64,000 nucleotides of DNA from Chlorokybus atmophyticus (taxonomy: Eukaryota; Plantae; Mesostigma and Chlorokybus algae), in the NCBI GenBank assembly GCA_009103225.1, contig RHPI01002533.1, positions 84,123 to 148,122 of the forward strand, given 5' to 3'. Positions 2,022 to 61,522 of the stretch are shown one piece after another; the stretch's first letter is position 1, and every line of letters starts with the position of its first letter. The position numbers were made by a program, and so were the translations under genes. The notes under the pieces were generated by a model. It saw nothing but the letters and a program-made list of their open reading frames with translations. It ran no database searches and was not told the origin of the DNA.

Positions 2022-2832
2022 CTGCCCAAGAATATAAGCCGTCAATAGTTGAAGTTTGCAAGTGCACAAACACACGAGTTGTGCACTGCAAAAGTGTCAA
2101 AATCACTTGATTTTGTCTCGTCAAGTTTCAAGTGTGTAACGTGGAGTATACAGCTCAAACAAGAGCTCCCCACACACTTCTCAACTAGACACTTGCTTAG
2201 AAACAAACCGCACGCGAATTCACGCGGCGGTTCACAAGTTACAGCTTGTCAAAGTTTGCACTTTGTACAACTCAACTCAACCCACAATTGTAATTGACAC
2301 ACAGGGTGCCAAAATCTCGTTGAATCAACCCTACAGGGTGATATCAGCGAGTTGTGAGTTGTGAGTCTGATACTGGCCGCACAGAATGACTCTGGCGGCC
2401 TCACCGCACTGACTGGCGGTAACGACAGCCGATGTTGCCACCGGACTGTCTCACAAGGGGGGTCAAACCCTTTACACCACCACGAATCCACGTGGTGGCC
2501 AGCACAAGCACACACAAGTGGTTATATATATATAAATCACTATGTGATGTGCTGGGCATGCAATACTGAGGGGGAAGGCTGCCTGAGTGGCCGCCTCCCC
2601 TACACGCAAGCTAACAAGCTCGGCTAGGCTAGGGCAGGGCAAGCTAGGCTATGCAAGGCAAGGCAAGGCAGGGCTAGGTAACTAGCCTACACCAGCAACA
2701 GCGTTTCAATAATAACAACAACAACAACAACTACCACCTAATAACTACCACTAGTTGCCGCCGCTGCAGTCGCCTGCCGCCTGCCGCCGCCGTCGCCTGC
2801 CGCCTGCCGCCGCCCCTTCCACAGGCTCTTCA

Positions 2833-40605: not shown

Positions 40606-42999
40606 TATATAACAATATTAGGCATCCGATATGTAGTACCATAGTAGACAATACTAATAGTAAGATGTGCATACGTATGTGTCTTTGCACGTGTCCTTAT
40701 GATGTAAATAATAGCATATTTACATCAATGTCAGTAGAATGTCAATATGCAGTCAATTTTGTCACTACTCAGGAGTGCCCTTACCGCGTACACTTTGCGG
40801 ATTGGACACATAACCATTAAGATCAATGTCGATTTGCAAGAAGCTTCTTTTCTTCCTATTTACGTGTGATGTGGAAATTTAGTATCTCGTGTACGCACGA
40901 TTATATCGCAAGGTATATATCCAGTCGCGCAAATGAATAAAGATGACGGGTATCTCACTTCCAATCATTTGCAAAAACGCTTCAAAATAAATGGAGATAC
41001 TTATTGACTTGCGTATGCTAATTCATCTCAACTTTAAATAATCAATCAAACCATATGACGATTGCAACGTGTTTACAAAAATGGTGTACAAAGTAAGCAA
41101 TGAGATGAGACATGCACAACACATGCAGCAATGTTAAATGGCGTTAGTCCGATTATTAACATCACCCCCACCACCACCGGGCTATGCATACAAAGCAAAA
41201 AGCCATAAATCAAGTTGCCACCTATCTTCACTGATGTTTGGAATGTATGTGAGCCGGTTTAGATTGCATGTGCATGGCAATAAGATCATATACCATATGA
41301 CATTTGCAGTGTGGATGTATATTGTGCTCGAAAATGGAAAGTGATGGCCCATCACATTGGGGGCCATGTCTATAAGTTCTGTACATGAAGGGCCTGCAGC
41401 AAGTTGCTGCGGAATCAGCTTCGTCAGCGGCACGCTTGCCAAGCTTTAAATCCTCGTAAGAACAGATTGGTTTGCAGCAGACTATTCCGTTGTGCAAAAA
41501 ATTCCACGTCCTTTACACCGCATTCACGATCTTACCACCAGCGGGCCACGTGACGAGTAATAGCCCATTATCCATGCGCCAAGACAACAGCGCAACAAAG
41601 CGGAGCCAAGGAGTGGGCATTTGATTGCTTGCAGTCGCGAATGAAACATGGGTCGCTTCTTATGTCACCTGATGGTTGTAAACAACCAAACCGGTGATTG
41701 GGCCAACTCCAGCTTGGTGTGCAGTAACCATTGCCAGCAGCCTTCAACAAGGCTGATGGAACCACCAAGTGCGCAACTAATGCTTTTGTTAATACACGTT
41801 AGATACAAAATTAAAAATAACTTTTGGAAGGCTGACATTCAAAACATCGTGGGGGCCTTAATGTCATCCTTGAGTTCTCAAGCATTGTACTTCAAGAAGC
41901 CTTTGCTTATGTCCAAAATGTCTGCCCGGCGTGCCAGCGCTTCAACAACCCAACCTGGCTCGTTTATGGCGTCAATTATCGCGATGTCATGGAACTATGT
42001 ATCCAGCTTAACACAATTAGCCAACTGCGAGCGGTTGCTTAACAAATCTCGTCATATGAACAAGGGTATCGATGTCATACGCGCACGCGTGCGCATACAT
42101 ACGCACACATACGCATACACACTCTATTCAAGCATCCAACAGGCACAACATTGTAAATATAAAAGTTACAGTTTTTTTTTAGAGCCGTCTACACCTGCTT
42201 TGAATCAGTTAATATCATAATGAACCAACGACACATGCACATGCGTGAAACTTATAGCATGCAACATTGGCTTCAATGACAAAGCAATTACGACGATTAG
42301 TGATTATTTACATGTCCATCAAGACCAATAGGTAACATGCATACATGCATACTACACAACAGATGGATTGGGGCCAATCAATCAAGCAAGCAAGCACAAC
42401 ACATTTAAGCTCGATAATACAGCACTTGTTGCTTGGGTTTGTTTTGGCATCAAGCAAAACAAAAACGATGGGTTGGGGGGCCCCACCAAGTTTTAGCTAA
42501 GTGCACTAGCTATAGACCGGGGAGGGAGGAGTGTGGGCAGAGGGAAGGGGGAAGGGGCAGCGGCAAGCAGCAAAGGAAGCACCTACAGAGCACCGCGGGG
42601 GAGAAGAAGGGATATGTTGGCTATCCACCGCCGCCGCCACTCACGACGACGACGACTGTGCAACTGCTAATGCCCCCGAGAGTTTGAGCGGCTGCCCGCG
42701 CTTTTATTCCCTGCACGTTAGTCACTCACAACAGGCAATGATCAGGGTTGGTAGTCAAAACGCGCCTTGCGAATTTAGCAGGGACGCGCACAACAGGGCA
42801 TCTTCGCAGTGCACATGGAATTGCTGCGAGCTGTGCATTGACTCGACGTATATGCGGGCAATGAATCTGCTCCCCACACTCACTTACCCATCACTTACCC
42901 GTACTTACCTGTTGTCGTTATCATGTGCTGCTTGGTAGATAGGTGGCTGACATGCGTCACCCTGTGCTGGTCGGAATTGCTGCCTTATCCAATCTATGC

Positions 43000-43490
43000 A
43001 CCACCATTACATGGACAAGTCAGTCACGCGAACCATAGGTGGTCACAACCGTCGTGACCACCAGTTCATAGCTCAGGACCACACTCGCGGCCATACGTCC
43101 ACAGTATGGCACGAACACCACAGCATATATAATCCGCCGTCATTACCTCGTCCATGGTTCGCGAACCATACTGGTGTGAATATAACGGAAAGTTACAACC
43201 AGTGTGGTGTAAATTTTCAGTGCCAATATGGTCATGACGTTTAAGCCATGCGTGGTGCAGACATTCACGACAAGAGCGGCATGACAGTCACACCGTATAT
43301 GGTCCACCGTCATCACCTCATCCATGGTTCGCGAACCATACTGGTGTGAATATAATTGAGCATCACAACCCGTATGTCATGACAGTTACACTAGTGTGGC
43401 CTGGCGTGCCCCACTCAGTATGACTTGGCAATTACACCACATGTGGTCTTGCATATCATTGCCAGTATGATATGACCGTCACACCTGTCA
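43000..43490. repeat. Degenerate subrepeat block: ~47-bp units plus two ~49-bp repeats containing a 16-bp palindrome
   Basis: 43137-43185 is nearly identical to 43307-43355, and each contains ATGGTTCGCGAACCAT. 43434-43485 resembles the 47-bp units at 53701-53848. Confidence 0.75.
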
Positions 43491-44340
43491 TGCCATCTAC
43501 CCTCGCATGCCAGTCCTTCTCGAGCATGCCTACACCCAGCCCCACGCCCGGGCTACCAGCATGAAGACCGCGCGAGCCCCAGCCTACTGCTAGCTACTGT
43601 ACCGCTCATGTAGCATGTAGCTAGGGCTACTTTATAGACCTGCCTGTAGGGACCGCGCGTAGCTGATCAGTTGTAAGTCTGTTAATGACACATGTGCTAT
43701 ATCGAGTCTTAGGAGATTTCCGAAATAGCATGAGGCCTCGATGTGACCGTTGGCCTAGTGCCCGCGTGGCACTGCACAGTCATGATTTGACATGTATAAG
43801 TAGGAAGTCACGTCACCGGACTAGCTGGTGACACTGTAAGTGAGTACTAGGAGTACCAAGAAGTAAAGACTTTGTTTCTAAAGAGCTTGTGAAGCGACTT
43901 GAACTGGAAGCACGCTGCCCCGGTTGCCAAGAATTCCCTTACTGCGTGAGACACGGTGCATGCTCTTGTGCGATGTGCCTGTCATTGCTGTGAGCTTGAC
44001 GGTGGTGTGTTGTTTCAGTAGTCAGGGTGTTGTATCCACGTGTTGCACACTCATTCACCTCACTTAACAGTGTATCATTCTATCCACTCATGCAAAGAAC
44101 TGTGTCCACAGCACTACCTATCGTAGTGGCTTGTTGACTTACAGTGTCACCCTCTTTGCACAAGTGAGTGTGTTGCGATCTGCATTAGATAGTGCAGTCT
44201 GCACCCAGGGATAGATCGCTGGGCATTCGTTATCATTGTCATCACATAGTGCGCACAAGCACTAATGTGTTGGGTGGTAACAGCATCACTATAGACGGTA
44301 GAGCACAAGCACTCTACCCTTTTACCTCTGGACCAGCTGT

Positions 44341-46180
44341 ATGAGCAGGCCCACCCCGTTCTCCCCAATAGACGAGGGTGACCTCAGCAGTCGGAGCCCA
44401 ACCACCAACCTCACCTACGAGCGGACCAGTGACGGGAGCATCGACCGCAGCAGCAGAGGCTCGCGCTCCATCTCCAGCTTCACCCCGCTCCACTCTACTC
44501 CTCGTCATCAAGCTTCTCCACTATCATCGGACAGCGACGACAACGAGATGGAGTCTTCCTATTCAACCACATCCCTGCGCTTCTCCGGACGTGCCGGCAC
44601 CACCTCGCTGGATGAGTTCATCATCAAGTTCCACTCCAAGATGCGGCAGAAAGCTCTGAAGAACAAAGACTGGTCAGATGAGATCTCTTTCCACATTGCT
44701 GCTCAGTATCTTGATCATGAAGCACACGATGTCTGGAAGTCCGTTGCTGAACTGCATCGAGTAGACGGCTATGGCGAGCTTGCCAGCACCATAGCATCTG
44801 CATCTCTGCACCGTCCAGCAGGTGTCGTTCCACCTGCCACTTCAGTTGCAGTAACAGGCTTGTCCATAGCTGCAGCTCTCAAGCAGGCAGAGGAGGAGGA
44901 ACCAGAGTTGGTACTTGTCAACTTTACCCCTGCAGAATTTGAGTCCAAGGAGGCCACAGTCGAGTCCGCATCCTTGACCGTTCTGCCATCATCATTGAGG
45001 AACAAAGAGCTGTACAGCAAGCGGCAGCCGCAGAGTGGGGTACTCCTCTACCTCCAGCAACACCTGGCTCTCGTGCAGGAGGCAGCGCTTTCACCCTCGG
45101 GTCAGTAGCACTGCGCGCACCAGCCATCACCGTAGGTGCTGCCATCTCTGATTCTCCACTCAAGGACCTGTACGCTGCCCTGCGCCGCACCTTCCCTTCT
45201 CAGACCACCACCAAGGTTGAGGAGCTGAGACGCTTCCGACGCAAGCCCAATGAGGATCCCCTCCGCTTGTACTCCAGACTGGAAGGTCTGCTGAAGGACA
45301 CTGACTACAAGATTGTCAGTGAGGAGGCTGCTGCAGTGATATACGCCAATGAGTTGGATGCTGCTCTGAGCGAGTCGACACGCCCGACTCCGAACTACAG
45401 CAGGCCCCTTGGTTACACCCTCAAAGAAGCCTAGAGACTGCACAAGCCATCCACAAGCGCTTGGTGTATGAGAAGGCAGTGCTGGACACCAACCGCAGCG
45501 CCGCACGGCCTGTAGTCAGCACGACAACTGAGCTTCCTCGCCGCGACCGTGGCCGGGACGCTCCACCAGCACGCGACAAAGGGAAACGGTCAGCTCATGC
45601 TGCACTTGCTGCCCCTGTGCTGTGTCATCGCTGTGGACGGCATGGGCACTACCAAAAGGAGTGCACCGAAGAATACTCAACTTTGGTTTGCGACCACTGT
45701 CACAAGACTGGTCGTTTGGAGTCAGTCTGCTGGCTCAAGTTCCCAGAGTTGAGGCCCGCCAACAGCTACAACCACAACTACTCCGGTGGCTACAACAGCA
45801 ACAACACTGGAGGCCACACTGGCAACAACTTCAGTGGCTACAACAGCAACAACACTGGAGGCCACACTGGCAACCACTTCAGTGGCTACAATAGCAACAA
45901 CACTGGAGCCCACAATAGCAACAACGCTGGTGGCAGTAACAACTACAACAACGCCAGTGTTCGCAAGGAAGAGCAAGGCTACAGGGGGAAGAATAGACCT
46001 CCTCAGCGTAAGGGACCAGAGACACGTCCGCGCGTTGCTGCTGTTGCCGCCAAGGCTTCATCCAACCCACCAGCTGATGACCATATGGCAGCCCTGATGG
46101 CGCGTATGGCACGCTTGGAGGAAGACAAGGAGCAGGACTACCGCGCCTGCCCGATGGGCGCTGGTGGCTGCAAAACGTGA
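44341..46180 (+). pseudogene. gag: Gag (frameshifted near 44975 and 45430) with two Zn knuckles and N/G-rich repeats
   Basis: LDEFIIKF..W..IAAQYLDHEAHDVW; LRRFRRKPNEDPLRLYSRLEGLL (frame missing from the ORF track); CHRCGRHGHYQKEC and CDHCHKTGRLESVC. Confidence 0.8.
45788..45915 (+). repeat. In-frame 48-bp tandem repeat (GYNSNNTGGHTGNNFS x ~2.6)
   Basis: Units at 45788-45835, 45836-45883 and a partial unit from 45884. Confidence 0.92.
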
Positions 46181-48399
46181 GAGAGACAGGACCACTCCGT
46201 CCCGCGTGCAACCATCACGACGAGCACGGGGGGAAGCTGCAACAACATCAGCAGGCACCTCCTCCGAAGCCACCAGTGGGGCTGCCTCCGCAGCAACAGC
46301 CACACCGGCTACAACGTCGACTCCACCAACGTCAGCGGCACCCACTCCAGTTGCACCACAACCTGGTACACCGATGGACACCGTGACACCGACACTGGTG
46401 AGCACAATGGCAACAGTCGCCATCTCTACCGAATCTGCACCAGCGAGCGGTGCACTTCCCACTGCAGCAGTGCCTCTGCCCGTAGGCGTTGAGACAACTC
46501 TCGCACCACCGACCGGTACCGTCGCAACTGCCACAATTGCCATCATCGAGCCCGCTGTCTCTGCAGCAACGCGCGCAGCCACTCTGCCCGCTCTCGACGT
46601 CACTCAGGCTGTCCCAACTGGTCAGCAAGCTGAGCGAGCATGAGAGACCGTCCTGCGCGGAGCAGACCCCACTACCATCGCCTTCGGTCGGGGGGGGGAG
46701 CGCACCACGCGTGTCGCTCGCGATGATCGCGTCTTCCCGCTACCAGAGGTTCACACCCTTCCAGCACTCACTCAACACCAACTGGAAGATGAGATCCTTG
46801 CTGGCACTGCACCTCCGATGCGTGACAGGGTGTTTTTGATCAGCTACAGCCCACCGGTAGTGTTGGAGTTGGCCCTGCAGCTGTTCTGGGCGCTGCACAA
46901 CAACATGCAGACCGCCCCGCACCAGTCTGCACGCATGCCAACCACCACCTTTTAACCCAGCCCGCTGGACACGTATCGGGACCGCCGAGACACCGTCCAG
47001 CAGCGCATCGCCGACGCAGCCGACCTGCCTTTGGGCACTGATGAAGCACTCGGACCTCCTACAACCGCTCCCCTTCATCAGCGCTACCACGCACTGGAAC
47101 AAGCATATCATTGGCGACAGGATCAAGCTGCCGCCATTGCTGCACGTGAGCAAGCTCTTGAAGCTACGCGTGCACCAATACCTCAGTCACCAACTACTGG
47201 TCCATCCTCCAGCACCACTCCGCTCTTCGTCGAGACCAACTCTGACCAAGCGAGGGCGTTGGCTCAACAAACCAGGGGGGTGATCGCCCCGTTGCTGCCT
47301 GCGCTGGTGGAGGATCTACCTGAGGACCAAAGGGAGCCAGGGAGGGGCTACCTTACACCACAAGGGTGTACACAAAGAGATGGAGCAGGACTGGTTGGAG
47401 AGCAACAACTACGCACTGCTCTGTTGCGACAAGCAACCATGCTGCATCGGCAAGAAGGCATCGGACTTCGGCAGATGCTTGGGATGCGAGACAATGGCAA
47501 CGCGGCACGCGCACGGTTAGTGACGTGGCTGGTCACCAACCATCCCGCAGTCCCGTTGTTCGCTTTCGGCGCCAGATTAGCGTGGGTGGACGCATTCCTT
47601 CGCTCCATACGGCAAGCCTATGATGAAGTGGCTTCCGCCGCCACTGACACTCTGGAGGGAGCTCTGGAGGCGATACTGAGTTTGCCAGGAGTGGAGGCAG
47701 GACGTCAGCGCAGGCGCATCGCCGCTGCTTACGAGCAGCATGTCCAACAGCCAGAGACCCGCCTCACTGTATGCACACGAGCAATAACAGTGCTGGAAGT
47801 GGGAGTGGTCAACGGCAGATGGGATGCTTACATGGCAGGGATCCTCAGGGTGCCCACCATCACCCACGACATGAGAGCGCGGCTCCTACGCGCAGTGTAC
47901 CTGCAGCCCATGCCTCAGAACCATCGCTATATAGACGTGGACAACAATGCGACGGCGACATGGGAAGGTACACTAGTCAGAGAGGCAGCCCATGCCGTGC
48001 GATGGACCTATGCAGAGGAGCAGGCTGCACGAGAGGCAGTCCCGCAAACACCAGGTCCTCCAGGGTTCCCGCTACAGCCACTGGCCACTCCTCCTGGCAT
48101 GACAACAGCTGCACGGAGGGTCAACCCTCCTGCACCTCCACTTGGACAGTTTGCAGCAGCACCTCCAGTGCCTAGGCCACCACGCGTGTACCAGCAACCG
48201 CGACAAGGACGGTTTGGACAAAGCCGAGGACAAGGAGGTCCACAAGATTCATCAGGCAGAGGAGCCCTGGCTGCCCTGCGGTCAGGCCCCGCAGATGAGA
48301 GTAAAGCAACAGTCTCTCCACGCAAGAGGTTCCGTCGCTGCAAGAGGCTGCGCATCAACGCTAATGCAGCCATGATCGCCAACCAAGGCAAGCACGTGA

Positions 48400-48760
48400 T
48401 CGTCAATGGGCGGGCACTCAAATGCGTGATGCTGGACACTGGAGCACAGCCCGTCATCATTGGGCGCTACCTCGCACGAGATCTCGGCATCACCAGCGCT
48501 GAGCTGCTTCCCTGTCCCTACCAGCTGGACACCGCAACCGGCAACCGCGACAAGGTGCTCGGCCTTACCAAGCAGGCTGTGAGCATCCGCCTCACCGGAC
48601 TAAACCCTTCCCACAGCACCGAGATTGTACAAAGGTGTGTGGTCACCGATGCCGGGTCCTTTGACCTACTGCTGGGACAGGACTGCAACTTCCCTGTCGG
48701 CATGGGGATGGACTGCTGGACTGAGCAGGCATGGTTTCGACCGCATTGGGATGAGGATGA
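48400..48760 (+). CDS. Aspartic protease domain of the polyprotein
   Basis: CVMLDTGAQPVIIG (DTG at 48435-48443) ... FDLLLGQDC. Confidence 0.85.
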
Positions 48761-49139
48761 TGGAGAGGAGCAGGGATTCCTACCTCTCGAACTGGTGGCC
48801 AAGGCCCGCTCGCAACGAAGGTCGGCCGCAGCAGCCACCTACAGTCCTATAAAAAGCTCACGTGTGCCTCGTGCCCGAACGCAGCCGAGGACAACTGCAA
48901 CGAGCTCGAGCCTAAACGCTGAAGAGGACTCTCCTACACCGTACGATGAGTCTCAGGAGACTGTCACAAAAGAAGTGGCCTTTCAGGAGCCATCCGAGCG
49001 TCGCTGGAGCGCACAAGTAGCAGCACACATGCTACTGACCAGGCCTCAGCTCACTGCACACTTCCCTGTCTACAAAGACCAGGCTACAGTGCAGGAGCAG
49101 TACCACATAGCTACTGGAGTTGTGGAGTTCCACATGTTC

Positions 49140-50100
49140 CGCCGACAACAAGGCATCACCGTGCTGGAGCTGTTCGGAGGCATAGGCAGTGGGCTTGCGG
49201 CTGTCCTCAACACAGGAACAACAGTCACCAAGTACCTCTACTGTGACCCTGACCCTCATGCACAGGAGGCTCTGAGCCATCATTTACGACAGCTGCACCA
49301 GCGCTACCCGCAGCAGTTACCGCTGTCGGCACTGCAAGGGAGCCAGAAGGCTCTGCCGCAGGACATCCGCTGGATTATCAAGGATCACCTGCAGGCAGTC
49401 GGCAACATTGACCTGCTGATAGCAGGATGGGAGTTTCAAGGGCACTCCAGGGCAGGCAGAGGCCACGGGCTCTCTGATCCTCGCTCACAGCTGTTCTGGG
49501 AGCTAATGAGAGTCGTCAAACTCCTGCAGACCAGTCAGATCGCTAGGCCCTTGGGCTACATCATCGAGAATGTGCACTCCGAGGATGACAAGCGGCATCA
49601 CGTCGCCAAAGCTTATCGACAAGTATGCTCCTTGCTGGGGCATCCTCTCAAAATCAACGCCGCACGTCATGGATCTCGCGCACACCGCGTCCGCGCCAGT
49701 GGACCAACCTGGCCACTGCGGAGGACCTGTTTCTGGCAGAATACCTATACAGCAATCGGCCACGAAATCTCGTCGTCGATGACATCCTGGACCCTGGACG
49801 CACAGCGCAACCGGTCACACGCCTTGACCACCACCACTTCTACCAGTGCAACCAGCCTGGTCAGCCGCGCCGCGCACTACCCACACTTGTATCCTATCCA
49901 GGCTCCTATGCGTTCCGCAATGGAGGCGACGGCATGGTGTTAGACTCCAACACTTGACAGCTGGAAGAACCCAATGCCCGCGAGTGCGAGCGTGCTATGG
50001 GATTCTTTCCAGGCAGCATCACAGGCTCCACGCTGACAACCAGTCAACAGTGTCAGTTGTTAGGGCGCGCCATGGATCAAAACAGCATGGTGTGGTACTT
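49140..50100 (+). pseudogene. Cytosine-5 DNA methyltransferase domain inserted between protease and RT
   Basis: Motif I VLELFGGIG (49167-49187), IDLLIAGWEFQGHS (motif IV position), LSDPRSQLF, motif VI YIIENV (49566-49574), and R-V-R then WTNL after a 1-nt frameshift near 49698. It continues LPTLVSY and EPNARECERAMGF...LLGRAMD (motif IX/X-like). There is an in-frame TGA at 49955. Confidence 0.9.
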
Positions 50101-50399
50101 GGAAATGTGCTTTGCTCTCCAGGACCGCCATGTGTCCTTCCAGAAGCTCGAACACCTGGCTGTGGGGTGGATTGCTCGCTTTTCAGAGACCAAAGCAGCA
50201 CACACCGCCCTCGAGACCGCCCATATGGAGGAGCAGGCAGCAGTCACTGTGGAAGACATTCCAGTGGTCGCCAACGCTACCTCGTGGTCACACGCCATTG
50301 GACCGCTAGCCATAGGCCAGACTCGAGAGCAACTCGAGGCTCTCCTCAACAAGTGGAGGAGCCAATTCAGCTTCAGTGTGAAGGAGCTGGGCATCTGCT

Positions 50400-51700
50400 C
50401 AGCATACCAGATGGACATTGAACTAGTGGACACCGAACCGGTGTTCAGAAGACAGTACCGCCTCTCCAAGCTAGAAGAAGACTTGGTGGAACAGAGGTGC
50501 AAGGCGCTGCTAGATGCAGGCCTGATCGAGGAGTCCACATCGGACTTTGCGGCCGCGACCGTCATGCCCCTGAAGAAAGATTCAGCAGGCAACTGGACAG
50601 ACCGGCGCATGTGTGGCGACTATCGCCCCCTCAACAACAAGACCAAGCAGGACAGGTATCCAATGCCTACCGCAGAAGGCATCTTTGACGATGTAGGAGA
50701 CTGCACGGTCTTTAGTATCCTGGATATGCGCCAAGGATACAACCAGATCGCTATCAAGGAGGAGGACAAGCACAAGACTTCCTTCTGGGGAAACCGGCAG
50801 CTGTACCAGTGGAAGGTCATGCCCTTCGGACTGAAGAACGCTCCGGCCAAGTTCCAGCGCGTCATGGACAAAGCCCTCAAGGGGTTGGACTTCGCATGCT
50901 GCTACATCGACGACATCCTCATCTTCAGTTACAGCAATGAGGAGCATCTACAGCACATCGAAGAGGTGCTACAGAGGCTGAAGGAAGTCGGGATGACGGT
51001 GCACCCTGACAAGTGCACCTTCTTCACCCACAAGGTACCCTACCTAGGACACATGATTGTGCCCCATGGGGTGTACGTACAGCAGGCCAAAGTGGAGGCG
51101 CTGGTGGCTATCCCTGCCCCCACAGACCTCACGCGGCTGCGGGCCTTCCTCGGCCTTGCCAACTATTACCGCCGGTTTGTCAAGGACTTTGCCAAGATCG
51201 CAAGGCCTCTCAACGAACTACTGAAAAAGGACACCGGGTTCTTGTGGAAGGAGGCACAACAGGAGGCCTTTCAGGAGCTGAAGCTCCGCCTCACCACAGC
51301 TCCCATTCTGCAACGCCCTGACTACACCAGGTCGTTCATCCTGCACACAGACTGGAGCAAGCTCGGCATGGGGGCCGTGCTCGTACAGCACGACGACAAC
51401 AAAAAGGAGCGCGTAGTGTCGTACGCCAGCCGCAGTAACAACAGTGCTGAGGCCAACTACAGCAGCTACGAAGGGGAGTGTCTCGCCGCAGTGTGGGCCA
51501 TCTCCTTCTTCCGACCCTTCCTGTTTGGACAGCAGTTCCAACTGGTCACTGACCATCAACCCCTCAAGTGGTTAATGAACAACCAGCATTTGACAGGAAA
51601 GTTAGCACGATGGGCGCTGCTGCTCCAGGAGTACGACTTCGAGGTGGAACACCGCGCAGGCCTTGCCAACCAGGATGCGGATGGCCTCAGCCGTAACCCC
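50400..51700 (+). CDS. pol: Reverse transcriptase and RNase H
   Basis: RMCGDYRPLN, LDMRQGYNQI, MPFGLKNAP, YIDD (50903-50914), LRAFLGLANYYRRF, LHTDWS, ECLAAVWAI, TDHQPL and EHRAGLANQDADGLSR. Confidence 0.96.
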
Positions 51701-52090
51701 CACCTCAGCACCAACGACGCCACAGGCGCCCGACATGAGTTGGGTCCTACAGCTGCACCTTCAGGTGTGGCCACCATGTTCGCTGTCGCTGCGCTACGCT
51801 TAGGACGCAGGACTCAGATCGCTGAGGCAGCAGCAGATGGGGACATGCCCGCTCTCGAGCCCGCCATCACCACCACCGATCCTTTATCAGAAGAAGCAAT
51901 CGCCGCCGACCCTGAGGTAGATGATGAGGAGCTGGCACCCACCGACACACAACAAGACATCTGGCTGGACGAGCCATCCCTCGCACTGCTTCAGACTGGA
52001 CAACTTTCAGCAGGCATGAGCGCACGCGAGAAGGACCGCGTCCGGCAACGCACTCAGCGTTACCGCTGGGCCAACGACAGGCTGTATTGA

Positions 52091-53220
52091 CGGATACAAG
52101 ATGCAGATCAGGAGGTCCCCACACCAACTGCACGTGAAGGCATCATCTCCTCCCTTCACACCGAGCTCGGGCACTTCGGTGTCAAGCGCACGGTCAGCCT
52201 GGTCAGGACCCAGTACTGGTGGTAGGGGGTGCACAGACAGGTGCGGGAGTTCGTCAGCAACTGTCAGCAGTGTGACATGGTTCGCGCCAGCCTCAACACG
52301 CACAACGCCACCTTGCATCCCCTTCCCATTTTCGGGTTGTTCTACCGCTGGGGACTGGACATCCTCGGAGACCTAGCGCCCTCAGCGCGAGGCAACCGCT
52401 ACATCCTCGTCATGATCGAGCACTTTTCCAAGTGGGTGGAGCTGGTGCCCCTGCCCGACAAGAGCAGTGAGGGAGTAGCCCAGGCTTTCCTCTCCCATGT
52501 ATTCGGACGCTTCGGCAGCTGCGCTGAAATCATCACCGACCAGGGTACGGAGTTCAGAGGAGCCTTCGACAAGCTTATCGACAGATGCTTCATCGACCAC
52601 CGTCGCACCTCACGCGACCACCCGCAGGCCGACGGCCTCGCCGAGCGTACCGTGCAGACCATCAAGAAGGCACTGCGCAAGTACGTCCTTGCCTACGAGA
52701 AGAATACCTGGGATGATCACCTCCCATGGGTAGCAATGGGCTACCGGCTGTCCAAGCAGGCAGCCCTGCGAGAGTACAGCCCATACTATCTACTGTTCGG
52801 AAGGCAGCCATTGCTCCCTTTCCGCGCACAGCAGGAGGTCGACAGAGTGGTGGACAATCTCGACAACCCCGACGAGATGGTGTATGATCTGACAATGCGC
52901 AGTGCGCTGTTCGAACACACAGTCCCCATGGCCTTCAACAACTTGCGCATCGCGCAGCACCGCGACACGCTGCGTTACGAGCGTGTGCGCAGTGGTTTCT
53001 ACAAGGAGCGGGAGCGCCGCTTCGAGTCAGGAGACTTCGTCTACCGTATGGCGTCTACACGCGACACCCTCGATACCTCCGTCGGGCGTGCTGTCTACAA
53101 GGTATTGAAGGTGCACCCCACAGGGGTACTGGACCTACTGGAACAACGAGGCGAGCGCATGAAGGACAACATGGTCAACTGCGCGCCCTGTCATCTCCCT
53201 ACATTGCTGGCTTTACCAAG
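52091..53220 (+). pseudogene. Integrase (HHCC + DDE core), interrupted by stops at 52088 and 52223
   Basis: HTELGHFG..YWW*GV..NCQQC; WGLDILG, IITDQGTEF, GLAERTVQTIK and PYYLLFGR. Confidence 0.93.
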
Positions 53221-53253
53221 ATCCAGCACCCGCGTCCGCTGCGCAGCACCCGA

Positions 53254-53419
53254 TGCGAGAGTGTGGCAGCGCCGACGACGACCCATAGATGATGTTATGC
53301 GACGGCTGTAATCAAGGCATGCATGCTGCTACTGCCTTGACCCTCCACTGGACGCAGTACCCTTGTGGGAGTACTGGTGCGATGACTGCCGCATCAACGG
53401 TCCCCCACACAGTCGGTAG
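53254..53419 (+). pseudogene. PHD finger at the integrase C-terminus (2 frameshifts, 1 stop)
   Basis: Reconstructed as CE.C-GSADDDP*MMLCDGCNQGMH/CYCLDPPLDAVPLWEYWCDDC-RINGPPHSR*, which has C4-H-C3 spacing. Confidence 0.85.
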
Positions 53420-53700
53420 GAACTGAGTTCTGGAGCAGAGGGCTACCCCAGAATCTCAGGGGGGGTGGCTTGTTGACTGTGTGCACTACGACACAGTCTG
53501 TACACAAAGGTGGCGAGCAACATCGGCTCGTCCACTGCACTAAACACCGCGTAGGCTCATCTTCAAGCCTATGCCCACGATTGGGGGGTTGTCTTTTGCT
53601 TACATGACTCCAATGCAATGCACGGCACTAGCNGTGCAGCACTAGCACTCCTCCGCAGCCTGTCCGAGACAAGGTTGCCCTCGACCATGGCAGGCACGAC

Positions 53701-53848
53701 ACACCACATGTGATCTTGCATGTCATCGCCATTATGGCACGACAGTCACACCACTTGTGGTCGTGCATGTCACCACTAGTATGGCATGACAGTCACGCCA
53801 CTTGTGATCATGAAGCCCGTGATCAGTATGACATGACCAATACACCAC
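53701..53848. repeat. 47-bp tandem array (3 units plus a partial unit)
   Basis: Units start at 53701, 53748, 53795 and 53842 (ACACCACATGTGATCTTGCATGTC...GACAGTC). Confidence 0.9.
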
Positions 53849-54384
53849 AAAAGGTGTAAACCGACACCACCAACAGAGCCACGACTGCCATGCCATTGGT
53901 GGTGCTAACATTCAAGACCATATGTTTGCGGCATTCATACCATGCATGGTCACAAATGTACAGCGGTTTGCCATAAGCATTCGCAACAATTGCGTCACAC
54001 TGACATTTGCAAATCGCAATACAGCTTCTTATGAATTGGCAGAGTGCTAGTACCTTATGTACTAAATGCAACTACAGCTTCAGGGTGCACATCTCTGCTA
54101 TTAACTCTATCCATCAGTCGCTTACAATTTGGTTGACTGCAACTTGCGGCAAGGTGCACAGCACTTCTCCAGGGCTGCCTTTATATTCATCACGTACTCA
54201 GCACGCCAGTGCACTCCGGATTTCTTCTTGTGTGTTGACCATGAGCAACTGTTTTCTCTAGTACCCAGCTGATCCAGCGTTTTTTCTCAGCAACCCTTAC
54301 CAACTCATCGACTCCAGGGGGTCCATATGTAAGTAGTGTATCGATTTTTGCACTTTTTCCTGCTGCAGCCAAAGCTTGGTTTGG

Positions 54385-54740
54385 TATCTAGCTGCTATTA
54401 AGGTCAAGTAGTTGGTGTGTACTAAGTTCGGTATCCGTCTGTTTTTGAACTGCATAATGGCCATATCCGTCTTTTTTAATCATGTATAAAGGGGATCAAT
54501 CTTAATGCGCGATTCAACCAAAAACGCTATGGCCGCAATTCGCGACAAAAACCTAAGATATCTAGCTGCGATTAAGGTCAAGTAGTTGGTGTGTAATAAT
54601 TTCGGTATCCGTCTTTTTTTTAACTTAATAATGGCCACATCCTGTACTATTGTTTTGTTCGATCACATATTAAGGGGATCATCTGAATGCATGATCCAAC
54701 AAAAAATGTTATGGCCGATTTCGAAGCAAAAACCCAAAAG
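54385..54740. repeat. ~174-bp AT-rich tandem duplication
   Basis: TATCTAGCTGC.ATTAAGGTCAAGTAGTTGGTGTGTA begins at both 54385 and 54559, and similarity continues through the units. Confidence 0.88.
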
Positions 54741-54984
54741 CCGCAATGCAGGGGAATTTTGCAACTTCGTCGCCGAGTTCTAAACCTGCGCGGACAAGCC
54801 TGTCGGATTAGCAAGCAACAACCTACGACCTAGACCATGACCAACTAGATTACGATGACACAAGACACTCTGCGACGCATTTGTACATAATATATCCTTT
54901 ACAACAGCAGCCTCAATTGTCTCACGTGCCGCAAGAAGTGTTAGATGGATTGCATGCATATATCACGCAACACATGCACTAACA

Positions 54985-55085
54985 GCTACATACAGTATAT
55001 ATGTGTGTACATGTATATATATATATACATATATGTGTGTGTGTATATACATATATATACATATAAGATATATGTATACGGCTAT
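54985..55085. repeat. (TA)n/(TG)n microsatellite
   Basis: Alternating TA/TG/CA run. Confidence 0.9.
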
Positions 55086-55679
55086 CAATACCGGGATTTT
55101 TGTTCTTGAAATGTAATCGTGAGGAGAATTACGGTAATGTCGGTAACATGAGGATGAAGAATGTGTTAGACCTGCCGTCCCGTCCAATCGCAGCGCTTAC
55201 TTACCGGCAGATGTTTGCATTGGATTCCCTGAGTCACCTGTTTTGGCAAGGTTGTTTGCGGTGAGTTGGGGAAGTCCTTAACTCTTGTGCTAGTGCTAAT
55301 CATAACACATGCAACTAGCAGCCTTTTACACGTGCTTGCTGGCCCCGCGGCCTGCTACTAGCAGGGCGCGGGGTTGAACTTGGCAACAATGAGGTTGTGA
55401 AATTGTTAAGGTTCGTCACAGTGCAAAGTAATAATTGTACCACACACCTTGTTAGGTATACATTCTTGTACTATTGACGGACCCAATCAAAACGTAAATG
55501 ATTATGTGTATAGCTTTAGCATGCAGCGTCCATACGTAATGTTGCCGCGTCCTCAATTGCGTTGGGGAGTATAGTCGCATTGATGATGATTTGGTTACAA
55601 TTGTAATCTGGATTTACACAAGCCTTTCTCACGACCTAAACCACAAGCCTTTCTCACAACCTCAACATTTAATTACGTT

Positions 55680-56200
55680 AACGCCAAGTCCTCAACGTCA
55701 TCTTCCTTTGTCATATTGAAGACAACAACGTCATTCAAGTAAACCATGGCATGTTTGCCAAGCATGTCACTAACGATTTTATTCATTTCCTTCTAAAACA
55801 CCGCGGGCGCATTTGTCAATCCAAAGAGTAACACTTTATATTGCTAATGGCCTGAGGATGTTCTAAATGCTGTCTTGTAGACATAAAAAGGATAAATGCG
55901 GATTTGGTGATATCCGCTTGTTAAGTCCAGCGTACTGAACTACGCATTTTTCGACAACCTATTAAACACATCATCAATCCTTAGCAACGGGTATCTGTGG
56001 ATTACCGTGATCTTGTTTAAAGCATGGTAATCCACACACATGCGCAACTTCCCATTCTTTTTCATCACAAACAAGATAGGCGCGCCGAAGGGTGAAGAAT
56101 TTGATTCAATCAGCCCCTTTTCCCATAACTCTTTGATTTGAGATTCCATTTGCCCTCTCTCGTTAGGGCTTAACCTCTTATGGTCGAAATGGAGGCTCAC
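55680..56200 (-). pseudogene. pol: Gypsy RT fragment
   Basis: SSPFGAPILFV.KK.GKLRMCVDYHALN, LDLTSGYHQIRI, FGLTNAPAVF and VYLNDV, with stops. Truncated after the YxDD equivalent. Confidence 0.9.
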
Positions 56201-56816
56201 TACTAGGAGTTAAAGGTTGTGTGTCCAACACCTCGACCAGGGGGCAAGACTAGCAATTCATCTGAGAAAACATCTTGATATTTCTCAATGATGTCCGCTG
56301 CAGATTCTGTATTTCGGGTACGACATCATGACTTGATGTCAAATGTACCAGAACAGCCGGTGTGTTTTTACGCAATGCACGTTTCACTTGCAGTGCCGTG
56401 AGAACTGCAGGGTCCATTTGCTTGTGTTCCAAGCTAAGCGACCCTTTAACGGACAGTGAAATCCGCTTGCGCCCCTTTTTCACTGTACACAATCGTACAG
56501 CAGTGTCCAATGTCGTCCAATCGCTTTCCCCCTCCCTGCGGCTTGGTCGAAGTTGCCACTTGCGACTTGTCTTGCATAGCCGCAGAGTCATCATTGTACA
56601 ACAACACACTCAACCTCTGCAGGGTTGCGAGGTCATCGAGCACCAAAGGCTTTCCCGTAAATGTGTTGTACTGCAGCTGATCGCGCAGACGCGCCTCCAA
56701 CCCGCGCTTGTGATTGTCGAACTGCTTAGCCTTGTCCATAGGCATAAGTCCACTGTACACGTGACCAATCAATGCCTGGAAATCCTGCAGATAGACTGAA
56801 GCCGCTCTGCCATTTT

Positions 56817-58414
56817 CATCGCAAATTTTACACGGTGACTGACAAGGGACTGAGGGGGACTGACGGATGCCTGACCCTGCCTGACCCTACCTGACGTAAC
56901 GGATTGGTTCACAAAAGGGACTTTTTAGGACGGCCGTCACTATCAAGCAACATATACCAACGGCAAGCGGTCGACCGATAAGTACAATTGACGGCGGCCT
57001 GCCTGTGACGGCAACACCGCACTTCAAGGTAATGGCCGATTGTCGGTCGTCCCAGTTGCGCGATGGCGACCTTTCTGTATAGCAGATAAGTCACGATTTG
57101 GTCACATACAGTGACGGCCGACCGTCGGTCGTACCCTGACCGTCGAAAAGTATGTGCGACGGCTGCCTACTTTGGCAAGCCAATCACCGTTAGTCCCTAT
57201 TCGGTGACCTTACCGCATTTATTAAGTGACGGCCGATCGCCGGTCGTGCACTTAACGCGGCGGCGACCTACTTATTGTGTGTCAAGTATGATAAGCAAGT
57301 GACCGCCGGTCCCAAAAGGTCGGCAAGTCGGGACAGTGGTACCGGCCGGCAAGTCGAGACGCTGGTACAATGCAGCCGCCGTACTATGTCAATGGTACAA
57401 ACAGTGCCATTGTCGCAATGGCACTATCGTACCATTAGTATGGTACGATAGTGCCATTGCAACAATGGTACTTTCGTATTATTATAGTAATACGATAATG
57501 CCGTTGCGAGTCACGTTCGACGACGCGTTTAGATAACTTGGGCTGCTCAAGTTATTCAAACGCTCAACGGCTTCAAGTTGAACAAAGCGTTGTGGGCGGC
57601 GGCGGCGGTGATGGCGGCGGTGGCGGCGGCGGCGGCAACGGCTAACAGTAGGTGAGCTTGGTTGCTGTCTGACGTTGTACTACGTGCAACACCGCATGCC
57701 ATCTAACCACCCTCCTTGCCTTAGGGCGGCCAGGCCAGGCCAGGCTAGGCCAGACTAGGCCAGGCTAGGCTAGACCAGGCCAGGCGGTGGCAGCGGCGGC
57801 GGAGAAAGAACGGCGGCGGCGGAGCCGGAGCGGGCGGTGCAGGAGCCGCAGCTCAGTACAAGGGTAGTACTAGCAGCAGTACCTAAGGTAGTAGTAGCAG
57901 TAGTGGTAGTGGTAGCAGTAGTGGTAATCTAGTTGTACTAGCAGTAGTAGTAGCAAATTTATTACATTGTAACTTATTTATTTTTTTGTTTATTATTTGT
58001 CACGCATTCTTACACAGCTGATGATGACAATCACGTGTGACACCTCATCATGACTGAGCGGTACCAGCAGGTACCTTTGAAGGTACACATCATTAACTTT
58101 AGGTACCTTAAGGTACCTGACAATTTCGCTCAGTTAGCGTACAGTTGTCGGTACCTAACTCATAGGTACCGGTCAATTATTTGTTAGTTAGGTCAAGTCC
58201 CCTTTGCTTAACTGTTGAGTACCTGGCAGGCACCTATTAATTAGGGTCAGTCCCTTTATGCATAACGGCCGCCAACTAATGGTGTCGGCCGTTATGCTCA
58301 GATCCCTGTATCGAGATCGCCAGTAGACTGAAAGTCGACAGTCAAAATGAGTATCCTCAGGTGCACGGCCGTTGCAAAAATTCAGTCGGCCGGCAGGGGA
58401 AACATTTTGCGACG
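56817..58414. mobile_element. ~1.6-kb non-autonomous TIR DNA transposon nested in gag
   Basis: It splits gag codons LRQ|NGRA. Ends are CATCGCAAAT.. and ..ATTTTGCGACG, with an apparent TT duplication and subterminal repeats (GACGGCCG on the left, GGTACC on the right). No coding capacity. Confidence 0.8.
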
Positions 58415-60287
58415 TTGCCGTAGCTTGCTGAGCTTGTTGCGAGCAGCAGTGGCCTGGTCCATGCCACCATAGCGCTCCACCATGAACTGGAACAGTGCCT
58501 CCAACCTGTTGGAAGCACCATCCGCACTTTGTCTCGCCCAACCCCAACGCATCAGATGGCATGAGCTCAGCAATGTGCTCGTTGATTGGGCGCTGAAATG
58601 CTGCCAAGTACCGCTGGATAGTCATCACCCAATCATGAATGTTGACAGTACCGTTGGGCTTGAACTTCTCAGGCTTGTTCAGTGCTGTGACAGGCATCCC
58701 CGCCGATGAACCACCCACTGTTGTGGCAGCTCCAGCCACTTGCTGACGTAGAGCCACCAACTCAGCCTGCATCGCGTCAAGGCGCGCCGTCAACCGTTCC
58801 TTACGAGCCAAGCGTTCTTCCAAGTCAGGCCCAAAGTATCGAAACAGATCCTTGCAGCGCTTCTAAGTCTTGCCTGTCAACATGGCCAAAGCCTCAAACG
58901 CCATCCTATCACCCGAGAATGGGTCTGGCTTGTCCCAAGTGGCCATGAGGGTAGTTACTGCTGGATCAATGCGCACGAGTGGTGGAATGTTCTGAGTCAA
59001 CTCGTGCTCGGGCATTTGGATCACTATCTCTTTGCTTGCTTGAGGAAGTGTTGCGAAGTCTGCCTCATATCCATGGCGGACTATTGTTGCCCAGTTATCC
59101 CACACTTCATTGGTCATGCGAGGGCAGCGAGCAACAAGCTTTGCTCGCCCTTGTGCATATTTCTCAATGGCCCCACCAATGACAAGTAAAGGGTCCACCG
59201 TTGCAGCACCATGAGAGGACGAGCCGGAAGCTTTAGCACTTTCGTGCTTCGAGTTCTCCTCTTATTGCCACCCTTGCTCTCGCTCTCACGCGAAGAGCTC
59301 TTGTTCACTTCCTCCTCATCACTTGATGGCTCATATGCGGATGAGGACAAGCTTGGCATAGGGGTACCTCTCTGCCTGTTCCCCTTCCCCTTGGCCAGAC
59401 ATCTGCCCAAGAAAGAAGTCGTAAGAGAATGAGTGTTTAAGTGCACAACCACACTAGTTGTGCACTTAAGAAGTGCTGAAACTTATGGTTTCTTCCTTGT
59501 TGATTTCAAGGTGCTGTACTTGGGTAGAACAGCACGTACACTGACTGCCTAACACCTCTCAGTAAGATGCTTGCTTGTAAACAAACCATACGCAAATTGA
59601 CGCGACGATTCACAAGATATAGCAACTCAAAGTTTTCACTTTGTCCATCCAGCTCAACTTACAGTTTTAAATGACATAAAAGGTGCCAAACTTTTGTTGA
59701 ATCAGCCCTACAGGCTAATATCGACAATTATGAGTCGTGAGTTTGATATTGACCGCTCAAAATGAAATTGGCGGCCCCACCGCATTGAATGGCGGCCAAA
59801 ACATCCCAAGTTGGCGCTAGACTGTTTTCTTGCGGTGGGAGAAGTGTAAACAACCACAAACCCCTCCTTACACCACAACGAATTCACGCGGTGGCAGCCC
59901 CAACCACGAGCACACTCACAAGTAATACATAATGTGATTACAAGTGATGTGCTGGGATGCAATGCTTGAGGTGAGGTTGCCTGAGTGGCCGCCTCGCCTT
60001 CACACTAACAAGCTATGCTAGGCCAGGGCAGCTAGGCTAGGCTAGGCTAGCAAGCAAGCAAGCAAACAAGCAAGCAAGGCTATGCTACACCAGCAGCAGC
60101 GACAACAACAACAACAACCACATTAACAACTACCACTACCCACTCAAACTCGTGGGTAGCAGCTGCTAGTGCTGCCGCCTGGCACTGCTCAGTGCCGCCT
60201 GCTGCCGTCAATCGCTGCCGCTGCCCCTACCACCGCCAGAGCCGCCGCCGCCCCCACAACCCTTCACGCCCTTGCTCCAAAACCAAA

Positions 60288-60770
60288 TGTAAGAGAGAGG
60301 GTGTGCTACCGTCCGAATCCCCCACCCCAACACCGCCACCAGCCACGCCGACACCGCCGCCGCTCCCGCTGGGCAATTGCCACAGCGAAGATCCCCTGGC
60401 TATGGCGGCGGCTGCGTTTGAAGCGCCGCCATGTAATTGATATCGACGCGAGACTCATGTGTCATGTCGATATCAGTGTTGCAGATAAGAAACACTACAT
60501 TAGGGCCTTAACATTAGGTTAACGGCCCAAATCGTGACAATCCTCCCCAATTTACCCACGGGTTCCTCATTGTCTAATGAAGCACTTACTAGCCCACGTC
60601 GCCGTGGTCACGGCCGTACCACAATCGGTCTGCCCGCGGTCTTTTGGATCCGGCCATCCTCCCTGCGCGACCTGCCATCCGGCTTGATTGGCTGTATATA
60701 CCCGTTGGGACCCTTATACTACAGCATAAATAAGGGCGGGGAACCTTTATGGAGGTAGCACACCGTTACA
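60288..60770 (-). repeat. 5' LTR of family A copy 2, with a ~150-bp insertion
   Basis: Aligns with 2853-3198 except for the insert at ~60531-60679. Confidence 0.88.
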
Positions 60771-60772
60771 TT

Positions 60773-61522
60773 TGAGGCAGATTCAAGGCCAATTCAAGGC
60801 CAAAAACATTTGGGGCGGCTTGCCCTATGCTGGGCGCAGGTTCGCAACCTGCGCGCCGAGTCAGCTTGACCTATGGCCGCGTGAGCGGTCGCGCCGATAA
60901 TAGGTCACGCGGGGAGGATGGCCGGATTAAAAAGGCCGCGGGCAGACCGATTGTGGTACGGCCGTGACTATGGCGCCGTGGGCTAGTAAGTGCTTCATTG
61001 GATAATGAGGACCCCGTGGTTTAAATTGAAGAGGATTGCCACGGTTTGACATATATTGTGACAAACCTCACTCATGGTAGCATCTTTTGCTATCATAGCC
61101 TAGTGGTCGGAGCCCACTTATTACAATGGTAACGGAATTTGAAGTCTCTGGTTCAATTCCCGTAGGGGACTGAGGCAGATCGAAGGCAAAAAAATCATTT
61201 GGGGCGGCTTGCCCTAGGCTGGGTGCGGGATCACAACCTGCGCGCCGAGCCAGTTCAACCTAAGGCCGCGTGAGCGGTCGCGCTGCGATGGCAGGTCGCG
61301 CGGTGAGGATGGCCGTTCGTGGCCCGGATCCAACAGTCCGCGGGCAGACCGATCGTGGTACGGCCGCGAGCACGGCGACGTGGGCTAATGCCTCATTGGA
61401 TTATGAGGAACTCATAGGTTAAATTGGGGAGGAATGTCACAAATTACATATATTGTGACAGACCTCACTCATGGTAGTGTCTTTTACTACCATAGCCTAG
61501 TGGTCGAACCTCAATTGTTACA
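60773..61522 (+). mobile_element. TRIM-like element: two ~352-bp direct repeats around a 45-bp internal segment
   Basis: Repeats 60773-61125 and 61171-61522 each run TGAGG...TTACA. The internal segment starts a-TGGTAAC (PBS-like) and ends AGGGGAC (PPT-like). No TSD confirmed. Confidence 0.65.

What the first reader, a model, noticed from the sequence alone, without database searches (positions are those of the whole stretch)
49140..50100. Full-length C5 DNA methyltransferase domain between protease and RT
Motifs I (FGGIG), IV position (AGWEFQGHS), VI (ENV), VIII-like (RVR..WTNL) and IX/X-like (ERAMGF..LLGRAMD) appear in canonical order. They are in frame with PR upstream and with RT downstream, apart from one frameshift. 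Placement inside Pol implies the enzyme is packaged with RT/IN and could methylate nascent cDNA (inference), for example as self-silencing or as mimicry of host gene-body methylation.
Basis: partly seen in the sequence, partly recalled or inferred. Interest (0 to 1): 0.8.

Follow-up and report, generated by a model that had tools for sequence, protein, structure and literature searches.

The report
Algal Gypsy retrotransposon carrying DNMT3 methyltransferase
This is a dead copy of a multi-copy jumping gene in an early-branching green alga whose replication protein contains a DNMT3-type DNA methyltransferase domain that in intact copies likely methylates the element's own new DNA; the kind was described in 2018 in another alga, but relatives occur across green algae and liverworts and have split end repeats that likely have to be cut at an internal junction before insertion.

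Summary
The domain is real: a DNMT3-like C5 cytosine methyltransferase between protease and RT of a Ty3/Gypsy element (43486-53701) in Chlorokybus. This copy is dead. Besides the frameshift, the catalytic cysteine reads Phe (Cys in 149 of 154 relatives and in other copies in two public runs), an in-frame stop splits the domain, and gag, integrase and PHD are broken. The kind is published: KnitGypsy-Dnmt3 of Klebsormidium nitens (2018), with the same protease-DNMT order and A-coding-B-A-B repeats; its enzyme was inactive in an inconclusive yeast test. Not found in my paper searches: relatives in Closterium and liverworts; a chlorophyte branch with the DNMT between RNase H and integrase; an integrase-fused PHD finger; and a conserved internal junction (CACGACA-nn-TGTCATG) that also forms the inserted ends, with 4-bp target duplications, so the integrase likely cuts inside the repeat. 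cDNA self-methylation stays inferred; the element shows no extra CpG loss. This scan reported the same family before, in this and other genomes.

The parts
43486..53701 (+). Whole element, form A-coding-B; TG...CA ends; both ends match the 9-mer GGCAYGACA as an inverted pair
   Evidence: contig depth 41-569 inside vs 0-9 in the flanks in runs X1, X2
43482..43485 (+). Left copy of the 4-bp target-site duplication (CACC)
53702..53705 (+). Right copy of the 4-bp target-site duplication (CACC)
43486..44125 (+). Repeat A (5' part of the split terminal repeat); followed by 14 nt identical to the start of B (44126-44139)
   Evidence: loose ends join B end to A start and A end to B start in other copies
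44341..46180 (+). gag, in several frames; zinc knuckle at 45623-45670
   Evidence: similarity to Gag of K. nitens, Closterium and Marchantia relatives; indels against other copies
46181..48395 (+). Long coding stretch between Gag and protease with no family match
   Evidence: no Pfam hit in the part inside ORF 46956-49943; no BLASTP hit among the 179 relatives
48396..48683 (+). Aspartic protease
   Evidence: Pfam PF13650 above cut-off, PF13975 below
49146..50125 (+). DNMT3-like C5 cytosine methyltransferase domain; broken by Phe at the catalytic position (49434-49436), a frameshift near 49695-49699 and a stop at 49955-49957
50597..51634 (+). Reverse transcriptase and RNase H, in frame with DNMT motifs IX/X with no stop between
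52091..52621 (+). DDE integrase (H2C2 zinc finger and core), with stops at 52088-52090 and 52223-52225
53250..53386 (+). Frameshifted PHD finger at the integrase C-terminus
   Evidence: 38.7 bits to a family PHD profile when read with X at the breaks; Pfam PHD on one fragment only E 0.05, below cut-off
53458..53465 (+). Polypurine tract directly before repeat B
   Evidence: same position in relatives
53465..53701 (+). Repeat B (3' part of the split terminal repeat)

Best explanation
This is a dead copy of a multi-copy Ty3/Gypsy retrotransposon whose polyprotein carries a DNMT3-type cytosine methyltransferase between protease and reverse transcriptase; in intact copies the enzyme is likely packaged with RT and integrase and likely methylates cytosines on the element's own new cDNA. 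Shown: domain order, DNMT3 affinity, conserved catalytic residues in the family, lesions in this copy, A-coding-B-A-B repeats, 4-bp target duplications. Inferred: (1) the polyprotein is cut by the element's protease in the particle; (2) the DNMT methylates the cDNA, most likely at CG as DNMT3A and SymbioDIRS-Dnmt3 do, so that the new copy resembles methylated host DNA (about 0.55); (3) plus-strand synthesis starts at the polypurine tract, so the cDNA begins with B, while inserted copies begin with A, so the DDE integrase would cut at the internal B|A junction, on a linear or an end-joined cDNA (about 0.6); (4) the PHD finger would guide the choice of chromatin. The confidence given is for identity, family and dead state.
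For: Pfam and PDB hits. Family profile: DNMT3A/B/C 3e-20, DRM2-type 1e-10, HhaI 2e-8, DNMT2 1e-6. The fold of a natural relative hits DNMT3A/B in all listed ranks. Catalytic Cys 149/154, motif VI Glu 153/154, motif VIII Arg 150/154 and 149/154 in relatives. Other copies in runs X1 (12 contigs) and X2 (5 contigs) read cysteine at the catalytic codon. K. nitens GAQ93235.1 has Gag-protease-DNMT in the same order and aligns to the window across both domains (26% over 456 aa, E 2e-31). Host: a window exon is 100% identical to a Chlorokybus (Chlat1) protein. Junctions B-to-A and A-to-B in both runs; full A-coding-B-A-B in L059, L086, L091.
Against: No activity is shown for any member: the K. nitens domain did not methylate yeast DNA (inconclusive). 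CpG o/e of the element 0.71 vs host DNA 0.72: no footprint of extra CG methylation. No RNA holder was listed, so expression is unknown. The dN/dS test had only 7 stop-free DNMT sequences and 18 of 21 pairs saturated. No eukaryotic host DNMT3 was in my trees, so DNMT3 membership rests on profile and fold ranking and on the published tree. In one subclade a conserved in-frame stop follows the DNMT, so there it is not a simple Pol domain.
Confidence: 0.88

Rival explanations
1. The domain is an active enzyme but its main target is not the cDNA: it methylates chromosomal DNA in trans (older copies, competing elements or the insertion site), limiting transposition or shaping the new locus.
For: In 28 of 47 loci examined a stop at one conserved place follows the DNMT in frame with RT, so there the enzyme would be made at Gag-like levels, more than one cDNA needs. 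Integrase carries a PHD finger. The 2018 paper raises host-benefiting restraint as an option.
Against: The window copy and L081, L087, L091 have no such stop. In the chlorophyte branch the DNMT sits between RNase H and integrase, a place that ties it to the cDNA-integrase complex.
Confidence: 0.25
2. The domain is kept for a role other than DNA cytosine methylation: RNA methylation, nucleic-acid binding, or a decoy or partner of the host's own DNMT3.
For: No DNA methylation by the K. nitens domain in yeast. No extra CpG depletion.
Against: Catalytic Cys, Glu and both Arg are kept in at least 149 of 154 relatives less than 50-90% alike. The closest solved enzymes are DNA-specific DNMT3s, far above DNMT2. 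The related SymbioDIRS-Dnmt3 domains methylate CG de novo.
Confidence: 0.15
3. For the ends only: the A-coding-B form here is a later deletion between B1 and B2 of an A-coding-B-A-B insertion, and the element's cDNA already has A and B at its ends, so no internal cut is needed.
For: B1 and B2 lie only about 450 bp apart in relatives, so recombination between them is easy and would leave the same target duplication.
Against: It explains this copy's form but not why the polypurine tract lies directly before B1, nor why the internal junction keeps both att-like ends across Chlorokybus and distant relatives.
Confidence: 0.35
4. A chance capture of a host DNMT3 retrocopy in one element, or an assembly artefact.
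For: This copy is full of lesions.
Against: Multi-copy in two runs; 485 clusters at 50% identity match the family profile at E <= 1e-30; same domain order in Klebsormidium, Closterium and liverworts.
Confidence: 0.01

Closest known systems
KnitGypsy-Dnmt3 of Klebsormidium nitens (de Mendoza et al. 2018, PMC5890265; read: main text parts 1-4 of 7, passages, searches in the peer-review file and data table; Fig. 4c and the main supplementary PDF not seen). Called streptophyte Gypsy-DNMT3 in bioRxiv 10.64898/2026.05.21.726589 (passages).
   Same: Intronless DNMT3-like domain in a Gypsy polyprotein, unpermuted motif order, protease-DNMT order (GAQ93235.1), DIRS-like A-coding-B-A-B repeats with a Gypsy domain set.
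   Different: Different host lineage (Chlorokybus); only 26% identity over protease plus DNMT N-half; this copy is A-coding-B and catalytically dead. Junction sequence, target duplication, PHD finger and wider spread are not in the text I could read.
SymbioDIRS-Dnmt3 and SymbioLINE-Dnmt of Symbiodinium (same paper)
   Same: Retrotransposon-borne C5-MTase; SymbioDIRS-Dnmt3 is DNMT3-type, in Pol, and methylates CG de novo in yeast.
   Different: DIRS (tyrosine recombinase) or LINE elements; independent captures according to the paper.
EpiLTRs and DAM-LTRs (bioRxiv 10.64898/2026.05.21.726589, passages)
   Same: Gypsy-like elements of green algae that carry DNA methyltransferases and a chromatin reader.
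   Different: Their C5-MTase is sister to DNMT4 and comes with an adenine MTase and a chromodomain; stated there to be distinct from Gypsy-DNMT3.
Foamy-virus integrase cleavage of palindromic LTR-LTR junctions (PMC1180852, abstract and outline; PMC1905944 for HIV-1, search listing only)
   Same: A DDE integrase can cut an internal palindromic junction of two att ends.
   Different: There the junction forms only on 2-LTR circles; here it is a fixed part of the inserted element. It is a precedent for the chemistry, not a member of this family.

Membership tests
C5 cytosine MTase | Motifs I, IV, VI, VIII, IX, X in canonical order; Pfam PF00145 above cut-off | tested here: met
C5 cytosine MTase | Catalytic cysteine in motif IV, in this copy | tested here: not met
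   Phe at 49434-49436; this marks the copy as dead, not the family
C5 cytosine MTase | Catalytic cysteine in motif IV, in the family | tested here: met
   149 of 154 relatives; other copies in X1 and X2
DNMT3 | Closer to DNMT3 than to DRM, DNMT1, DNMT2 or bacterial enzymes by profile and fold | tested here: met
   (fold of a relative, mean pLDDT 65)
DNMT3 | Branches inside DNMT3 in a tree with host enzymes | not tested
   no host DNMT sequences were available to my trees; the published tree places the K. nitens copies in a divergent Dnmt3 clade
DNMT3 | De novo CG methylation activity | not testable with these tools
   published yeast test of the K. nitens domain negative and inconclusive
Ty3/Gypsy (Metaviridae-type) | Order Gag, PR, RT, RH, DDE integrase; polypurine tract; TG...CA ends; short target duplication | tested here: met
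Ty3/Gypsy (Metaviridae-type) | Two complete direct LTRs | tested here: not met
   no LTR pair in this copy; family has split repeats
Ty3/Gypsy (Metaviridae-type) | tRNA primer-binding site after the 5' repeat | tested here: inconclusive
   no TGG-type site seen by eye after A1 in L059, L086, L091; not compared with host tRNAs
KnitGypsy-Dnmt3 / streptophyte Gypsy-DNMT3 | Intronless DNMT3-like domain in the ORF of a Gypsy Pol | tested here: met
KnitGypsy-Dnmt3 / streptophyte Gypsy-DNMT3 | A-coding-B-A-B repeat structure | tested here: met
   met for the family in this organism's runs and in relatives; this copy holds only A-coding-B
KnitGypsy-Dnmt3 / streptophyte Gypsy-DNMT3 | One origin with the K. 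nitens element (RT tree) | tested here: inconclusive
   PR-DNMT-RT elements form one RT clade (11 rows, support 1.0), but the K. nitens protein held lacks RT; DNMT trees have no reliable root
DIRS / PAT-like tyrosine-recombinase elements | Tyrosine recombinase instead of DDE integrase | tested here: not met
   rve and H2C2 integrase domains, no recombinase hit in the ORFs scanned

The most novel reading that the evidence does not exclude
A Gypsy lineage spread over both halves of the green plants carries a DNMT3 writer (in two different polyprotein positions) and a PHD reader, and has abandoned the standard LTR route: its att sites sit as a conserved head-to-tail junction in the middle of the terminal repeat, and its DDE integrase makes the insertion ends by cutting that junction on a methylated, linear or end-joined cDNA.
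Probability: 0.45. Interest if true: 0.72.

Novelty: new member of a known kind. Interest (0 to 1): 0.4.

Why it matters
The finding as stated repeats a 2018 result in a new alga. What adds value is the family view. If the element is present in Marchantia, the open question of what a retrotransposon's own DNMT does becomes testable in a genetic model plant. Its presence in Chlorokybus, Klebsormidium, Closterium, liverworts and chlorophytes argues against a capture limited to the K. nitens lineage, and such copies can inflate DNMT3 counts in green-plant genomes. The split repeats will be missed by LTR finders, and internal-junction cutting would be an unusual integration route for a DDE retroelement.

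Tried and rejected
No whole genome was held, so copies could be seen only through public contigs. No RNA holder listed. No LTR pair found in the window. CpG depletion test: no difference from host DNA. dN/dS on metagenome loci: too few stop-free DNMT sequences, mostly saturated. IMG/VR scan gave only distant phage-type C5-MTases (11 loci, 24-33% identity): no viral member of the family. My first idea, that the 14-nt match after A1 drives circularisation, is not general: L086, L091 and L059 show no such match. The careful ML tree did not finish; the quick tree and FastTree have unreliable roots, so I make no claim on which DNMT position came first. No tRNA genes in the window. Paper searches that found no description of the family outside K. 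nitens or of the junction; subscription papers, Repbase entries and the main supplement of PMC5890265 were not visible and may hold it.

Full report
Observation. The N-half of the domain shares ORF 46956-49943 with an aspartic protease, and motifs IX/X share ORF 49958-52090 with RT and RNase H. Pfam DNA_methylase scores 28.7 bits against a cut-off of 22. Further stops lie in integrase (52088, 52223) and frame changes in gag and the PHD finger. This copy cannot make a working enzyme or move.

Host and copy state. An exon at 6575-7000 (-) is 100% identical to a Chlorokybus (Chlat1) protein, the only hit of that search. Public contigs of two runs, from two studies, cover 43401-53674 at depth 64-367 (X1) and 41-569 (X2), against 0-9 in the flanks 42000-43400 and 53675-55542. 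Depth is no copy number, and either run may be the assembly's source, but the contrast and the many variant contigs show a multi-copy family. At the catalytic codon those copies read cysteine (12 contigs in X1, 5 in X2). I could not see how they read at the stop or the frameshift, as 1327 rows of that table were not shown.

Enzyme class. The window's N-half alone hits DNMT3C and DNMT3A first (E 3e-4 to 9e-4). A profile of eight relatives plus three window pieces gives DNMT3A/B/C 3e-20 to 2e-16, DRM2-type 1e-10 to 1.5e-8, HhaI 2e-8, DNMT2 1e-6 or weaker. A model of the natural relative P0001 (mean pLDDT 65) matches DNMT3A/B in every listed rank (best E 8e-13). Of 179 relatives, 154 cover most of the domain; the rest were dropped as fragments. 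Among the 154, the catalytic Cys is kept in 149, the motif VI Glu in 153 and the two motif VIII Arg in 150 and 149. The family therefore looks catalytically competent. No host DNMT3 was in my trees.

Known kind. De Mendoza et al. 2018 (PMC5890265; main text parts 1-4 of 7 read) describe KnitGypsy-Dnmt3 in Klebsormidium nitens: Dnmt3-related domains in Gypsy Pol, under purifying selection, with repeats arranged as in DIRS (A-coding-B-A-B by the Fig. 1e and 4c legends). They propose cDNA methylation; the K. nitens domain showed no activity in yeast, which they call inconclusive, while SymbioDIRS-Dnmt3 methylated CG. My search recovered K. nitens GAQ93235.1, which has zinc knuckle, protease and DNMT in the window's order and aligns across both domains (26% over 456 aa). 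I did not see Fig. 4c or the main supplement.

Spread. The profile matches 485 clusters at E <= 1e-30. Named relatives with protease before the DNMT come from Marchantia polymorpha, Calypogeia fissa and Closterium. Of the 179 proteins, 41 have the window's order, 82 have RT-RNase H-DNMT-integrase and 56 are too short to tell. The second order has named members in Haematococcus, Chromochloris and Cymbomonas, with a further hit in Monoraphidium. Its DNMTs form one clade (support 99 on 14 sampled rows, quick tree), and the window-type RTs form another (11 rows). Roots are unreliable. A PHD finger ends the integrase in 17 of 21 long proteins scanned and gives a strong hit in 13 of 14 window-type loci searched. 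A 2019 review states that transposon-encoded methylases are absent from land plants such as tracheophytes (PMC6338049, passage); the liverwort hits show the family does reach land plants.

Ends. This copy has no LTR pair. It runs from TGTCATGCC at 43486 to GGCACGACA at 53701 with CACC on both sides. In both runs the 3' segment B (53465-53701) continues through two bases into the 5' segment A, and the end of A (44125) continues into the start of B: the junctions expected of A-coding-B-A-B. In metagenome loci, 16 held integrase, its tail and at least 500 bp beyond. Ten matched the junction pattern with up to two mismatches; I count nine, as the L046 match looks like a B end. Four end at B with no second A (L023, L039, L047, L081), and two show no end motif in the DNA held. 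The junction reads CACGACA-nn-TGTCATG or a close variant, identical to the Chlorokybus one in L015 and L040. Both ends were held for four loci: 4-bp duplications match in L059, L091 (A-coding-B-A-B) and L039 (A-coding-B, like the window), and not in L086. These were the best 80 of 450 confirmed stretches, many are near-copies, and they are not independent.

Mechanism. From standard LTR-element biology, the polypurine tract fixes the left end of the cDNA. Here it lies directly before B, yet inserted copies begin with A. The simplest reading is that the integrase cuts at the internal B|A junction. Cutting a linear B-A-coding-B-A-B cDNA at the left junction would give the long form and at both junctions the short form; an end-joined circle would do the same. 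Foamy-virus integrase cuts palindromic LTR-LTR junctions (PMC1180852, abstract). This is inference; B1-B2 recombination also yields the short form. For the DNMT, position in the polyprotein and conserved catalysis favour action on the cDNA (about 0.55). Against it: CpG o/e is 0.71 in the element and 0.72 in host DNA. In 28 of 47 loci examined, a stop at one conserved place follows the DNMT, with RT downstream; where the context was printed it is mostly TAG or TAA followed by CAR. That resembles a read-through signal (recalled, not tested) and would raise DNMT output to Gag level. The window copy, L081, L087 and L091 have no such stop.

Earlier notes of this scan. I wrote down the split-repeat reading before the look-ups, which show the same family and reading reported from this and other genomes. 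One note gave the lead on the stop after the DNMT, which I tested. These notes are not independent evidence.

Verdict. Real, known in kind, dead in this copy: a new member of streptophyte Gypsy-DNMT3. Interest 0.40. The part that would surprise a specialist is the family's breadth and the internal att junction, neither found in my searches.

Noticed in passing
window 43373-43485 and 53700-53846: The element sits in a 47-bp tandem array whose unit contains both end motifs of the element in order (a TGTCAT start and GGCAYGACA); the 9-mer occurs 6 times in the window (2.2 expected), twice as the element's ends and three times in these flanks. Either target preference for att-like DNA or an array derived from the ends.
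   Followed up: partly
proteins P0039-P0180, P0207-P0289: A large chlorophyte branch carries the same DNMT between RNase H and integrase, some with a G-patch domain; its terminal repeats were not examined.
   Followed up: partly
window 546-2096 (-) and about 56400-60770: Two diverged copies (69-98% alike in segments) of another element with a gag and zinc-knuckle ORF; an RT-like remnant lies at 55613-56176 (-).
   Followed up: no
window 46181-48395: About 730 codons between Gag and protease with no family match; some relatives (P0032, P0062) also have long Gag-to-DNMT spacers.
   Followed up: partly
window 45775-45950: 24/48-bp coding repeat giving an N/G/S-rich stretch after the Gag zinc knuckle.
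   Followed up: no
window 60551-61522: Nested direct (about 400-bp spacing) and inverted repeats at the end of the second gag-only element.
   Followed up: no
L033:6202-13450, L034: Copies that stop after RNase H and go straight into terminal-repeat sequence: internally deleted derivatives lacking integrase.
   Followed up: no
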